A DNA stretch of 4,434 nt from a virus (Duplodnaviria > Heunggongvirae > Uroviricota > Caudoviricetes), in IMG/VR virus record IMGVR_UViG_2917403263_000002; one strand, given 5' to 3'. A program made the translations under genes and the position numbers. Below, piece by piece: positions 2,041-2,420 of this stretch. The notes below the pieces were generated by a model that ran no database searches, was not told the origin of the DNA, and saw only the letters and a list, made by a program, of their open reading frames with translations. The stretch's first letter is position 1. Every line of letters begins with the position of its first letter.

Positions 2041-2322
2041 ATGCATTTTTCTGGCGGCGGGCTTCATATTCTGTGTGCTTATGCTTTCCGGCATGGGGCT
2101 TGTTCAGTGACACCTCAGCAGAAAAACGCCCTTCGCAGCATTGCCCGTCAAGCTAACTCTGAAATCAAAAAAGCCAGACAGCAGTTTCCGGATAAAAACG
2201 TCGATGACATTTGCCGTAGCGTACTGAAGAAGCACCGCGAAACGGTAACGCTGATGGGATTCACACCGACTCATTTAAGCCTGGCGATCGGCATGTTAAA
2301 CGGCGTCTTTAAGGAGCGATGA
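2041..2322 (+). CDS. Hypothetical protein in the slot lambda uses for orf61; start uncertain (ATG 2041, TTG 2023 or GTG 2107)
   Basis: The frame is open from 1990 to TGA 2320..2322. The C-terminal ~70 codons (TPQQKNALRSIARQANSEIKKARQQFPDKNVDDICRSVLKKHRETVTLMGFTPTHLSLAIGMLNGVFKER) use ordinary enterobacterial codons and look coding. No start has a convincing Shine-Dalgarno. This is the same frame in which a lambda-like orf61 would start 20 nt inside orf63, but the product would be 71-99 aa rather than 61, so it is not a simple orf61 copy. I do not recognise the protein. Confidence 0.5.
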   Translation: MHFSGGGLHILCAYAFRHGACSVTPQQKNALRSIARQANSEIKKARQQFPDKNVDDICRSVLKKHRETVTLMGFTPTHLSLAIGMLNGVFKER

Positions 2323-2342
2323 ACATGAAAAGCAAAATCATC

Positions 2343-2370
2343 AGGGAGCTACAGGCTCCTTTTTTATTAT
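2343..2370 (+). terminator. Candidate intrinsic terminator: GGGAGC / GCTCCT stem, 5-nt loop, then TTTTTATTATT
   Basis: Bases 2344..2349 (GGGAGC) can pair with 2355..2360 (GCTCCT) as a 6-bp stem with one G-U pair and loop TACAG, directly followed by a T-rich run at 2360..2370. It sits between the 2041..2322 ORF and the TraR-like gene. The stem is short, so this is a weak call. Confidence 0.3.
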
Positions 2371-2420
2371 TCGCATTCACCCTCAAGCGTATTAACCAAC
2401 AATTCAGGGATTAATGGAAG

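What the first reader, a model, noticed from the sequence alone, without database searches (positions are those of the whole stretch)
2311..2414. Unannotated 29-codon ORF with a canonical Shine-Dalgarno, overlapping a terminator-like hairpin
AAGGAG at 2311..2316 is followed 8 nt later by ATG 2325, opening MKSKIIRELQAPFLLFAFTLKRINQQFRD and ending at TAA 2412..2414, two codons before the TraR-like gene start in the same frame. The hairpin and T-run at 2343..2370 sit inside this mini-ORF. That layout resembles leader-peptide or attenuator arrangements, where translation of a short ORF controls terminator formation and hence expression of the downstream gene. Alternatively the SD is simply the last codons (K-E) of the upstream ORF and the frame is a coincidence.
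Basis: seen in the sequence. Interest (0 to 1): 0.4.

Follow-up and report, generated by a model that had tools for sequence, protein, structure and literature searches.

The report
Conserved phage microgene carrying a terminator
The 29-codon ORF is a real, conserved and apparently translated small gene of lambda-like prophages that carries a conserved transcription terminator inside its own coding sequence, so translation through it probably decides whether the downstream TraR-like gene is transcribed; the pieces were already in the literature, but their connection was not.

Summary
The window is the exo-xis region of a lambdoid prophage, and the mini-ORF corresponds to lambda 30709/30715..30620.

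It is not a chance frame:
- It is the only 31-aa ORF in this part of lambda, so it matches "orf2313", which a review reports from ribosome profiling.
- A few phage records annotate it as a hypothetical protein.
- It belongs to a family of 29-31-codon genes in Escherichia, Enterobacter, Citrobacter and Salmonella prophages.
- The family keeps its start codon behind at least 12 unrelated upstream genes, and it stops 2-6 nt before the next gene.
- pN/pS is 0.10 in its C-terminal tail, against 0.85-4 in the other five frames.

The hairpin and T-run are the published predicted terminator t2. Across the family the stem exists in four fully compensated versions, with no mixed arms.

There are no alternative structures or regulatory codons, so this is not a trp-type leader. 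The geometry fits a pyrBI/pyrE-type attenuator, in which a closely following ribosome masks the hairpin. That step is inferred, not shown.

The tail resembles the C-terminal helix of Orf61-family proteins, and its function is unknown. Interest is moderate.

The parts
2107..2322 (+). Upstream 71-codon ORF (the intact form of lambda 'orf61', PHROG 303). Its last codons, AAG GAG CGA TGA, supply the SD of the mini-ORF.
   Evidence: phrog_303, E=8e-36. Lambda carries a 7A-for-6A frameshift in this ORF. The stop ends 20 nt before the hairpin.
2311..2316 (+). Shine-Dalgarno sequence AAGGAG, 8 nt before ATG 2325.
   Evidence: It is AAGGAA in most relatives. Purine-rich SD-like motifs also occur in the unrelated upstream contexts of the family.
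2319..2321 (+). Alternative in-frame start (ATG here and in lambda, GTG in most relatives). It overlaps the upstream TGA and gives the 31-aa form.
2325..2414 (+). Mini-ORF, 29 codons plus TAA: MKSKIIRELQAPFLLFAFTLKRINQQFRD. The start that agrees with the rest of the family is ATG 2325, 11 codons before the Pro codon.
   Evidence: 106 of 107 copies intact; pN/pS; deposited as a hypothetical protein; predicted single helix.
2343..2361 (+). Terminator hairpin AGGGAGCT-ACA-GGCTCCTT, covering codons 7-13 of the mini-ORF. This is the predicted t2 of Bloch et al. 2014.
   Evidence: Four compensated stem versions occur across the family, with no mixed arms.
2360..2371 (+). T-tract TTTTTTATTATT of the terminator. 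It also encodes (P)FLLF.
2370..2411 (+). Tail of the peptide, FAFTLKRINQQFRD. It is under amino-acid-level purifying selection in the family and is homologous to the C-terminus of Orf61-family proteins.
   Evidence: pN/pS 0.10, bootstrap 0.03-0.20; E=1e-8. No conserved RNA structure was found here.
2406..2410 (+). AGGGA, the SD-like motif for the TraR-like gene, lying inside the last codons (R-D) of the mini-ORF. The family equivalent is AGGGAG/CGGGAG, 8 nt before the next ATG.
2421..2639 (+). TraR/DksA-like zinc-finger gene, the homologue of lambda Orf73 and the downstream gene here.
   Evidence: The function of lambda Orf73 is described in PMC9239242.

Best explanation
The mini-ORF is a genuine small gene, the counterpart of lambda 'orf2313'. 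It belongs to a family of 29-31-codon genes in the exo-xis (early-left) region of lambdoid prophages of Enterobacteriaceae.

Codons 7-15 contain a conserved intrinsic terminator, the published predicted t2. The start codon abuts or overlaps the stop of whatever gene lies upstream. The stop lies 2-6 nt before the start of whatever gene lies downstream, and the last codons carry that gene's SD. Ribosomes are therefore handed from gene to gene straight through the terminator.

Most likely mechanism (inferred): when a ribosome follows RNA polymerase closely, it covers the 5' arm of the hairpin, so the polymerase reads on into the TraR-like gene and beyond. That ribosome may be terminating at the upstream stop, 14-20 nt before the hairpin, or translating the mini-ORF. 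Transcripts that are not being translated, and whose polymerase is not N-modified, stop at the T-tract.

This is a coupling attenuator of the pyrBI/pyrE kind, not a trp-type leader. In addition, the C-terminal 14 residues are conserved as protein. The peptide, predicted to be a single helix related to the last helix of Orf61-family proteins, probably has a function of its own, which is unknown.

Shown: the ORF is conserved and shows a coding signature; the hairpin covaries; the gene junctions have coupling geometry. Second-hand: translation in lambda. Inferred: ribosome-dependent readthrough.
For: Identity
- The window matches lambda 30418-31008 and 182 phage records.
- The segment occurs in 3308 of 5426 complete E. 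coli genomes.

Translation and annotation
- A review reports a 31-aa 'orf2313' and a 7-aa 'orf2311' found by ribosome profiling in this conserved block of lambda.
- The only 31-aa ORF between exo and ea22, on either strand and with any start codon, is lambda 30715..30620, which is this ORF. One of three candidate 7-aa ORFs lies directly beside it.
- It is annotated in phage 21 and phage 1H12, and deposited as a hypothetical protein in NCBI and UniRef.

Family
- A pattern scan and a TraR-anchored sample recover MKALITR[SE]L[KS][RA]PFLLLAFTFNRINRQFREH-type ORFs.
- 43 of 67 distinct TraR upstream regions carry it.
- 111 of 122 distinct copies start with an ATGA overlap onto an upstream ORF of 40 codons or more. 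These upstream ORFs have 36 different C-terminal octapeptides, many of them near-variants of one another; at least 12 upstream DNA contexts are clearly unrelated.
- The stop is followed by NN-ATG of TraR-like genes or of at least 10 other genes.
- 106 of 107 E. coli-type copies are intact.

Coding signature
- Tail pN/pS is 0.10 in this frame, against 0.85-3.98 in the other five frames. It was the lowest of the three forward frames in 200 of 200 bootstraps.
- L043-type long ORFs keep the peptide motif without a hairpin or T-run.

Terminator
- There are four stem versions: GGGAGC/GCTCC, GGTCGC/GCGGCC, GGGAC/GTCCC and AGCCTC/GAGGCT.
- Among distinct sequences, 77 carry one pairing and 71 another, with none mixed.
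- Mean folding energy is -9.8 kcal/mol, against -2.3 for shuffles and -3.5 for chimeric arms.
- The allele-B 3' arm plus U-tract, GCGGCCTTTTTTATTG, also occurs in synthetic terminator L3S1P22, for which a termination efficiency of 73% in E. coli was reported.

Gating
- Li et al. showed that ribosomes repress an intrinsic terminator when the upstream stop codon is less than about 27 nt away, and that uncoupling translation restores termination. Here the distance is 20 nt, and about 14 nt in the ATGA-overlap relatives.
- Bloch et al. saw transcript levels drop after t2 in lambda but not in phi24B, although the two t2 sequences are identical.
- The difference I find is that lambda's upstream ORF is frameshifted and stops about 130 nt earlier, while phi24B's and this window's are intact.
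Against: - There is no direct evidence here for 3' ends at the T-tract or for translation-dependent readthrough.
- The lambda versus phi24B contrast is a post-hoc reading of qRT-PCR data from two different phages. In phi24B orf61 mRNA itself was low, which complicates that reading.
- pL transcription is N-antiterminated in lambdoid phages (established knowledge), so t2 may matter little during normal lytic growth.
- Li et al. also found that terminators within the first ~100 bp of an independently initiated ORF are not repressed. Gating would therefore depend on ribosomes arriving from the upstream gene.
- No U-rich, NTP-sensitive pause region of the pyrBI kind is evident upstream; that stretch is A-rich.
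- A pure bridging-ORF model does not explain why the tail is conserved as protein.
- The link to 'orf2313' rests on uniqueness of length. The primary paper (Liu et al. 2013) could not be read.
- Within the closely related E. coli-type copies, variation is too sparse to show selection: 3 synonymous and 5 non-synonymous changes.
Confidence: 0.55

Rival explanations
1. The gene exists to make a microprotein. The hairpin and T-run are an ordinary N-suppressible pL-operon terminator that has been packed into coding sequence because the operon has no spare room. Translation does not meaningfully regulate it.
For: - Strong amino-acid-level constraint on the tail.
- The peptide motif persists in long ORFs that lack the terminator.
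- The start codon is kept in many contexts.
- AlphaFold predicts a confident single helix, pLDDT 93.
- A second terminator-like hairpin (1748-1770, Bloch's t1) also lies inside a small ORF, orf60a. Embedding may simply be how this operon is built.
Against: - The N-terminal half of the peptide is dictated by the stem: E..A always goes with one arm pair and S..R with the other. The RNA structure is therefore selected in its own right.
- The terminator always sits within ribosome reach of the upstream stop, 14-20 nt, where repression by ribosomes has been shown experimentally for another terminator.
- No function, partner or family is known for the peptide: no Pfam or PHROG match.
Confidence: 0.28
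2. It is a classic leader-peptide attenuator of the trp/his/pheA type dedicated to the TraR-like gene. Ribosome stalling in the short ORF would choose between antiterminator and terminator hairpins.
For: A short ORF with an SD, an intrinsic terminator and a regulated-looking downstream gene lie in one line. The allele-B U-tract context matches a pheA-type terminator.
Against: - The terminator is in the middle of the ORF (codons 7-15), not after it.
- No competing structure appears in the single-sequence fold or in the family consensus fold. The consensus fold also failed to recover the terminator hairpin itself, so it has little power.
- There are no tandem regulatory codons.
- The element lies inside an operon and is coupled to an upstream gene.
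- About 30% of copies precede genes other than TraR.
- The peptide tail is conserved as protein, unlike typical leader peptides.
Confidence: 0.03
3. It is a non-functional relic: a leftover duplicate of the 3' end of an orf61-like gene that stays open by chance. Its apparent conservation would come only from the terminator, the downstream SD and recent common ancestry.
For: - The tail is homologous to the C-terminus of Orf61-family proteins, and the upstream ORF already has its own copy of that tail.
- E. coli-type copies are 95-100% identical, so their intactness alone says little.
- Rearranged fusion variants exist.
Against: - pN/pS is 0.10 only in this frame, in a sample anchored on the neighbouring gene rather than on the ORF.
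- The start codon is retained behind many unrelated upstream genes.
- There is no conserved RNA structure in the tail.
- Translation is reported in lambda.
Confidence: 0.04
4. The conserved hairpin and T-tract serve another RNA-level role. Candidates are the promoter p1 predicted by Bloch et al. (-35 TCATCA, -10 TTTTATTAT), a stabilising or processing 3' end, or the terminator of an Hfq-type small RNA.
For: BPROM predicted p1 on top of the hairpin, and Bloch et al. invoked it for high orf73/ea22 expression in phi24B. Hairpin-plus-U-tail modules are typical of prophage sRNAs (background).
Against: - p1 is identical in lambda and phi24B, so it cannot explain their difference.
- My consensus scan finds no + strand promoter there.
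- Stem covariation is what an RNA hairpin predicts, not a -35 box.
- There is no Rfam match.
- The sequence was not found in the EHEC sRNA supplementary tables that I could search.
- None of these roles explains the coding signature of the tail.
Confidence: 0.05

Closest known systems
pyrBI leader and pyrE (rph-pyrE) attenuators of E. coli, which act by transcription-translation coupling (from my own knowledge; discussed in PMC4824070)
   Same: An intrinsic terminator lies inside, or just after, a translated short or upstream ORF. A ribosome close behind RNA polymerase prevents hairpin folding. In pyrE, the K-12 rph-1 frameshift ends upstream translation early and increases termination. That is the same logic I propose for lambda's 7A frameshift in orf61.
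   Different: - No U-rich, UTP-sensitive pause region is evident.
- The element is internal to a phage operon, not a 5' leader.
- It is translationally coupled on both sides.
- It precedes varied genes.
- Its peptide tail is conserved as protein.
- Dependence of termination on translation is untested.
Predicted terminator t2 (and promoter p1) between orf61 and orf73 of lambda and phi24B, from Bloch et al. 2014, PMC4195576
   Same: It is the same sequence (AAAATCATCAGGGAGCT ACA GGCTCCTTTTTTATTATT), at window 2343-2371.
   Different: That paper treats the stretch as intergenic. It does not note that the terminator lies inside a translated ORF, that the stem covaries across a wide family, or that lambda and phi24B differ in the reading frame of the gene just upstream.
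Lambda 'orf2313' (31 aa), from ribosome profiling by Liu et al. 2013 as cited in Donaldson et al. 2021, PMC8614690
   Same: It is very probably the same ORF. It is the only 31-aa ORF in the exo-ea22 block, and its amino-acid sequence is identical in lambda and in this window.
   Different: The identification is by length only, because the primary paper was not readable. No function, conservation analysis or link to t2 was reported in the papers I could read.
Orf61 family (PHROG 303), small proteins of the lambdoid exo-xis region
   Same: The last ~24 residues of the mini-ORF align with the C-terminus of long family members: 12 of 24 identical, E=1e-8. In Citrobacter-type phages the same hairpin, T-run and tail are the actual 3' end of the long gene.
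   Different: The mini-ORF alone does not match the PHROG 303 profile. It is an independent gene with its own start. It often lies next to other genes, for example directly after orf63 in L300. Here it follows an Orf61-type gene that has its own tail.
Terminator-like hairpin inside orf60a (window 1748-1770): Bloch's predicted t1, and lambda tL3 by my recollection of its position
   Same: It is a terminator-like hairpin of the same operon, also embedded in a small translated ORF.
   Different: The sequence and host ORF are different. I did not examine its conservation, and its identity with tL3 rests on my memory of the lambda map.

Membership tests
Classic leader-peptide transcription attenuator (trp/his/pheA type) | Short translated ORF upstream of the regulated gene | tested here: met
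   29-codon ORF with an SD, ending 6 nt before the TraR-like start.
Classic leader-peptide transcription attenuator (trp/his/pheA type) | Mutually exclusive antiterminator and terminator structures | tested here: not met
   The single-sequence fold shows only the terminator hairpin plus a weak downstream stem. The consensus fold of 47 family members shows no conserved alternative pairing, but it also missed the terminator hairpin, so it is a weak test.
Classic leader-peptide transcription attenuator (trp/his/pheA type) | Tandem regulatory codons; terminator more than 20 nt downstream of the leader ORF; position in a 5' leader just after a promoter | tested here: not met
   There is no codon run in MKSKIIRELQAPFLLFAFTLKRINQQFRD. 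The hairpin occupies codons 7-13. The ORF is coupled to an upstream gene inside an operon.
Coupling attenuator (pyrBI/pyrE type) | Intrinsic terminator inside, or within ribosome reach of, a translated ORF | tested here: met
   The hairpin lies inside the mini-ORF, 20 nt after the upstream stop here and about 14 nt after it in the ATGA-overlap relatives. The experimental threshold for repression by ribosomes is about 27 nt.
Coupling attenuator (pyrBI/pyrE type) | NTP-sensitive (U-rich) pause sites upstream that set the polymerase-ribosome distance | tested here: not met
   The sequence from start codon to hairpin is ATGAAAAGCAAAATCATC, which is A-rich with no U-tract. Pausing itself cannot be tested here.
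Coupling attenuator (pyrBI/pyrE type) | Readthrough depends on translation of the ORF | not testable with these tools
   The only evidence is indirect: lambda (upstream ORF frameshifted) shows a drop in transcript after t2, whereas phi24B (upstream ORF intact) does not.
Intrinsic (Rho-independent) terminator | G+C-rich stem, short loop, and a U-tract immediately 3' | tested here: met
   8-pair stem, 3-nt loop, T6 followed by ATTATT. Folding energy is about -10 kcal/mol. ARNold/RNAmotif predicted it independently.
Intrinsic (Rho-independent) terminator | Structure maintained in evolution by compensatory change | tested here: met
   Four stem versions were found. 77 TCG/CGG and 71 GAG/GCT distinct sequences occur, with no mixed arms. 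97% fold at -6 kcal/mol or better. Chimeric arms give -3.5 against -9.8 observed. Caveat: the sequences are related to each other, and the two main alleles pair in different registers, so the tool-based pair count was not run.
Intrinsic (Rho-independent) terminator | Transcript 3' ends at the U-tract | not testable with these tools
   Only qRT-PCR data from Bloch et al. are available, showing lower downstream mRNA in lambda.
Bona fide small protein-coding gene | Start codon and RBS conserved across contexts; ORF intact | tested here: met
   ATG or GTG sits 11 codons before Pro in about 90% of copies, behind many unrelated upstream genes. 106 of 107 E. coli-type copies are intact.
Bona fide small protein-coding gene | Purifying selection in this frame only | tested here: met
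   Tail pN/pS is 0.10 (bootstrap 0.03-0.20), against 0.85-3.98 in the five other frames, in a sample chosen through the neighbouring TraR gene. For the whole ORF the ratio is 0.46. In the E. coli-type copies alone the test has too little power.
Bona fide small protein-coding gene | Direct evidence of translation | tested here: inconclusive
   The evidence is second-hand. A review cites ribosome profiling for a 31-aa orf2313 in this block, and only this ORF has that length. The primary paper is not held. The peptide was not found in the EHEC or Enterobacteriaceae small-ORF supplements I searched.
Orf61 family (PHROG 303) | Match to the family profile | tested here: not met
   Neither the 31-aa nor the 30-aa peptide gives a PHROG or Pfam hit. 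Only the C-terminal ~24 residues align pairwise with long members, E=1e-8.

The most novel reading that the evidence does not exclude
The mini-ORF family may be a portable 'translation-gated terminator' cassette. In that reading, a microgene keeps an intrinsic terminator permanently under the ribosome, so the distal exo-xis genes (the TraR-like RNA polymerase regulator, ea22, xis/int) are transcribed only from mRNAs that are actively translated or N-modified. Its conserved helical peptide, a free copy of the last helix of Orf61-type proteins, would be a separate regulator. A corollary is that the orf61 frameshift of laboratory lambda would act as an rph-1-like polarity mutation. That would explain why lambda and Stx phages express orf73/ea22 differently although their t2 sequences are identical.
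Probability: 0.3. Interest if true: 0.6.

Novelty: new variant of a known kind. Interest (0 to 1): 0.45.

Why it matters
The element sits in the best-studied phage and in prophages of about 60% of complete E. coli genomes, including Stx phages. It lies immediately upstream of Orf73, a TraR-like protein that reprograms host RNA polymerase, in a region that influences the lysis-lysogeny decision and Stx-prophage induction.

If termination at t2 is gated by translation, three things follow:
- It gives a simple, testable explanation for the puzzling difference between lambda and phi24B in exo-xis expression.
- It flags the reference lambda orf61 frameshift as a regulatory lesion.
- It adds a phage example of the pyrBI/pyrE logic that needs no nucleotide sensing.

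Independently of the mechanism, it identifies a conserved microprotein that most annotation misses, including RefSeq's automated E. coli annotation and the lambda reference record.

Tried and rejected
- Liu et al. 2013 (PMC3718152) is not held, so the coordinates of orf2313 could not be read directly.
- Pfam and PHROG scans of the peptide gave nothing.
- An Rfam scan of 1600-3100 gave only two chance-level hits elsewhere in that stretch.
- phmmer of the 31-aa peptide against 1.84 billion representatives found only 7 proteins. These were the same family plus fusion or frameshift variants, so there is no sign of relatives outside enterobacterial prophages.
- RNAalifold on the codon-aligned family found no conserved structure in the tail. 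It also failed to recover the terminator, because the two main stem alleles pair in different registers. For that reason I did not run the count of structure pairs and used arm-association and chimera statistics instead.
- Within the E. coli-type copies, synonymous versus non-synonymous counts have too little power: 8 changes in all.
- The peptide and hairpin were not found in supplements of the Sakai small-gene, Enterobacteriaceae microproteome or EHEC Hfq-CLIP papers.
- E. coli K-12 MG1655 DLP12 lacks this segment, so K-12 ribosome-profiling resources cannot help.
- The literature search for 'tL3' returned synthetic L3S terminators, not lambda tL3.
- A bidirectional-terminator reading is rejected: the antisense side has no T-tract in the Enterobacter-type copies (read from the sequences).
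- Stop-codon readthrough giving a mini-ORF-TraR fusion is rejected as a family feature. The shared frame is specific to E. coli-type copies; elsewhere the gap is 2 nt.
- The antisense 25-aa ORF 2309-2386 shows no coding signature: the reverse frames give 0.85-3.98 in the tail and 0.69-1.18 over the whole ORF.
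Full report
**1. What the window is**

The window is the exo-xis part of the early-left operon of a lambdoid prophage. Positions 2027-2616 align with lambda J02459 31008-30418 at 95.6% identity. 182 phage records match the window, including Stx phages, phage 21, HK630 and many lambda-like isolates. The 151-nt stretch around the finding occurs in 3308 of 5426 complete E. coli genomes.

The gene order on the + strand is as follows:
- exo, 1007-1687
- orf60a, about 1684-1866
- orf63, 1839-2030
- a 27-codon hydrophobic ORF, 2027-2110
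- a 71-codon ORF, GTG 2107-2322
- the mini-ORF, 2325-2414
- the TraR/DksA-like gene, 2421-2639, the homologue of lambda Orf73
- a DUF4222 gene, then xis and int

**2. The observation**

- AAGGAG lies at 2311-2316, 8 nt before ATG 2325.
- The ORF has 29 codons and ends at TAA 2412-2414.
- Two codons separate that stop from the in-frame ATG 2421.
- The hairpin spans 2343-2361 and is followed by T6-ATTATT.

None of this is improbable on its own. AAGGAG occurs twice against 1.8 expected, and the window holds 79 ORFs of at least 20 aa.

Two details were missed. An in-frame ATG at 2319 overlaps the upstream TGA and gives a 31-aa form. In most relatives the SD is AAGGAA and position 2319 is GTG.

**3. 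It is partly known already**

- *The hairpin.* Bloch et al. 2014 predicted this exact hairpin as terminator t2, "between orf61 and orf73", in lambda and phi24B. They also predicted a promoter p1 overlapping it. They reported lower orf73/ea22/ea8.5 mRNA downstream of it in lambda, but not in phi24B.
- *The ORF in the literature.* Donaldson et al. 2021 state that ribosome profiling of lambda (Liu et al. 2013) found two extra genes in this conserved block, orf2311 (7 aa) and orf2313 (31 aa). I could not read the primary paper. I therefore enumerated the ORFs of lambda between exo and ea22. Exactly one has 31 codons, on either strand and with any start codon: lambda 30715..30620, MNMKSKIIRELQAPFLLFAFTLKRINQQFRD. 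A 7-codon ORF, MKDGRHH, lies directly beside it. The identification is therefore very likely, but it is second-hand.
- *The ORF in databases.* It is annotated in phage 21 as a 29-aa "putative secreted protein" and in RefSeq phage 1H12 as gp38. It is deposited in NCBI and UniRef as a hypothetical protein. RefSeq's automated E. coli annotation (PGAP) and the lambda GenBank record do not annotate it.

**4. Relatives show a gene family**

*First clues.* Loci found through the TraR-like protein in Citrobacter and Pseudocitrobacter gave the first clue.
- In some loci (L042, L043, L048) an Orf61-like protein of about 74 aa ends with ...GVPFVLFIYTIGRINGQFREH*. This tail aligns with the mini-ORF tail at 12 of 24 identical residues, E=1e-8.
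- In others (L040, L045) a separate 32-39-codon ORF carries that tail after a methyltransferase gene.

Nearly all are short ORFs of the form MKALITR[SE]L[KS][RA]PFLLLAFTFNRINRQFREH. Related phages infect Enterobacter and Salmonella.

*A sample free of pattern bias.* I drew a second sample anchored on the neighbouring TraR-like gene. In it, 43 of 67 distinct upstream regions carry the mini-ORF, always open to a stop 2 nt before the TraR ATG.

*Start codon.* The start lies 11 codons before the Pro codon in about 90% of copies, behind at least 12 unrelated upstream DNA contexts. In 111 of 122 distinct copies it is an ATGA overlap with the stop of an upstream ORF of at least 40 codons. Those upstream ORFs have 36 different C-terminal octapeptides, many of them near-variants of one another.

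*Downstream gene.* It is TraR-like in about 70% of copies. Otherwise it is one of at least 10 unrelated genes, almost always in the arrangement TGA-NN-ATG.

*An example and the E. coli type.* In one Enterobacter-type locus the ORF follows orf63 directly, while the Orf61-like gene lies further upstream. Among E. coli-type copies, 106 of 107 are intact.

**5. Coding signature**

I used the TraR-anchored sample of 46-50 distinct sequences.

| Region and frame | pS | pN | pN/pS |
|---|---|---|---|
| Ten tail codons after the T-tract, mini-ORF frame | 0.129 | 0.013 | 0.10 (bootstrap 0.03-0.20) |
| Same codons, the five other frames | – | – | 0.85-3.98 |
| Whole ORF, mini-ORF frame | – | – | 0.46 |

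The mini-ORF frame had the lowest ratio of the three forward frames in 200 of 200 bootstraps.

- There is no conserved RNA structure in the tail.
- The last three codons (F-R-E/D) also spell the SD (AGGGAG or AGGGA) of the next gene.
- Long ORFs of the L043 type keep the peptide motif while lacking both hairpin and T-run. The peptide is therefore constrained independently of the terminator.
- AlphaFold predicts one helix over residues 3-30, with pLDDT 93 from a single sequence.
- The peptide matches no Pfam or PHROG family.
- A search of 1.84 billion representative proteins finds only this family and a few rearranged variants.

**6. The hairpin is selected as RNA**

Among 162 distinct sequences the stem occurs in four versions:
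- GGGAGC/GCTCC, which makes the peptide read R-E-L-x-A
- GGTCGC/GCGGCC, which makes it read R-S-L-x-R
- GGGAC/GTCCC, in the long ORFs
- AGCCTC/GAGGCT

There are 77 TCG/CGG and 71 GAG/GCT combinations, and none is mixed. Mean folding energy is -9.8 kcal/mol, against -2.3 for shuffles and -3.5 for artificial chimeras of the two arm types. 97% of sequences fold at -6 kcal/mol or better.

The amino acids of the N-terminal half therefore follow the stem, and the T-tract doubles as P-F-L-L. The allele-B 3' arm plus tract, GCGGCCTTTTTTATTG, also occurs in a synthetic terminator reported to work at 73% efficiency in E. coli. The antisense side has no T-tract in the Enterobacter type, so this is a sense-strand terminator.

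**7. Mechanism**

*Classic leader attenuation is ruled out on anatomy:*
- The terminator lies in the middle of the ORF.
- No alternative pairing was found.
- There are no regulatory codon runs.
- The element is internal to an operon.
- It precedes varied genes.

*What the anatomy does fit is a terminator kept within reach of ribosomes.*
- The upstream stop ends 20 nt before the stem here, and about 14 nt before it in the ATGA-overlap relatives.
- Ribosomes that reinitiate on the mini-ORF run straight over the stem.
- Li et al. showed for lambda tR2 that a stop codon less than about 27 nt upstream represses termination. Efficiency fell from about 90% to below 10% at 5 nt, and uncoupling translation restored termination. 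Terminators early in an independently initiated ORF were not repressed.

Gating here would therefore depend on ribosomes arriving from the upstream gene. That is exactly what the conserved ATGA / TGA-NN-ATG junctions provide.

*A natural comparison exists.* Lambda has an extra A (A7 instead of A6) in the upstream ORF, so translation stops about 130 nt before the mini-ORF. This truncated form is the annotated "orf61". Phi24B and this window have the intact 71-codon ORF ending at TGA-AC-ATG. Bloch et al. saw the drop in transcript after t2 only in lambda, although t2 and p1 are identical in the two phages. This parallels the rph-1/pyrE polarity effect of E. coli K-12 (my own knowledge).

*Caveats.*
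- This is an inference from published qRT-PCR on two different phages.
- N antitermination probably overrides t2 in normal lytic growth.
- Termination inside an ORF would give non-stop mRNAs, a cost that Li et al. also noted.

**8. Comparison with what is known, and novelty**

The closest known systems are:
- the pyrBI/pyrE coupling attenuators, for the mechanism
- Bloch's t2, which is the same hairpin
- orf2313, which is very probably the same ORF
- the Orf61 / PHROG 303 family, for the ancestry of the tail

As far as I could find, the following points are not in the literature I could read:
- The terminator lies inside a translated, conserved microgene.
- Its stem covaries at the expense of the peptide's N-terminal half.
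- The tail is under protein-level selection and derives from Orf61-type C-termini.
- The cassette is coupled on both sides and moves between gene contexts.
- The lambda frameshift offers a test of gating.

I rate the finding a new variant of a known kind, with moderate interest.

**9. Verdict**

- The coincidence reading is rejected.
- The leader/attenuator reading is partly supported, as a coupling attenuator rather than a trp-type leader.
- The function of the peptide is unknown.
- My own estimates: about 0.9 that this is a real, translated, conserved gene with an embedded functional terminator; about 0.45 that translation gates termination; 0.55 for the combined statement as scored in this report.

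Noticed in passing
window 1748-1770 (+), inside orf60a (about 1684-1866): A second terminator-like hairpin with a T-rich tail, identical to Bloch's predicted t1 and, by my memory of the lambda map, at the position of tL3. It also lies inside a small translated ORF, so embedding terminators in ORFs may be a general feature of this operon.
   Followed up: partly
window 2027-2110 (+): A 27-codon hydrophobic ORF, MTTTECIFLAAGFIFCVLMLSGMGLVQ. Its start overlaps the orf63 stop (ATGA) and its stop overlaps the GTG start of the 71-codon ORF (GTGA). A homologue, MSTGECIALVIAFVACVFLSSKLGLLQ, lies directly upstream of the TraR-like gene in a Pseudescherichia locus (L047). The E. coli records examined and the lambda record do not annotate it. 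It is likely a real small membrane protein.
   Followed up: partly
window 2165-2170 (the A6 run in GAAATCAAAAAAGCC); lambda L001 equivalent: Reference lambda 'orf61' is a frameshifted form (A7 instead of A6) of a 71-codon ORF that is intact here, in phage 21, in phi24B and in 80 of 95 copies examined. The A7 copies are lambda itself, contigs that look like lambda contamination, and one E. coli strain where the RefSeq annotation flags a frameshift.
   Followed up: yes
loci L008-L039: Many 'genome' hits to the TraR-like protein come from unrelated taxa such as Shewanella, Bradyrhizobium, Streptomyces, Paenibacillus and Kingella. They are at lambda-level identity, some on contigs of about 48.4-48.5 kb that carry lambda's A7 allele. 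This looks like lambda DNA contamination of those assemblies.
   Followed up: partly
window 1-1010: A tail-fibre assembly gene (1-585, - strand) and the C-terminal piece of a tail-fibre gene (585-809, - strand) abut a fragment holding only the last ~30 codons of bet (858-1010, + strand). This is a deletion or rearrangement joint, so this prophage probably lacks the pL/N side of the operon. Nothing in the window shows what drives transcription of exo-int here. About 348 E. coli genomes share at least 80% of the window.
   Followed up: partly
proteins P0031 and P0035: Two natural in-frame rearrangements were found. One is a 101-aa protein in which the body of the 71-codon ORF is fused to the 31-aa ORF, recreating the Citrobacter-type long gene. 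The other is a 30-aa protein with the orf60a N-terminus joined to the mini-ORF tail at QAPF, which loses the 5' arm of the hairpin.
   Followed up: no
window 2107-2322; loci L004 and others: In some genomes the RefSeq annotation names the 71-codon ORF 'cell division protein ZapA'. The Pfam ZapA match is far below threshold (13.7 against 23.8 bits, E=0.078), so the name is probably an over-annotation.
   Followed up: partly
window 2934-2972: An AT-rich inverted repeat with 16-nt arms lies between the DUF4222 gene and xis. The scan flagged it as terminator-like on the - strand. A weak, chance-level Rfam hit overlaps it.
   Followed up: no
window 2414-2437 (+): A 7-codon ORF begins at the last base of the mini-ORF stop (TAATG) and overlaps the TraR-like start out of frame. 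In lambda it reads MKDGRHH (30620..30597) and is one of three candidates for the 7-aa 'orf2311'.
   Followed up: partly
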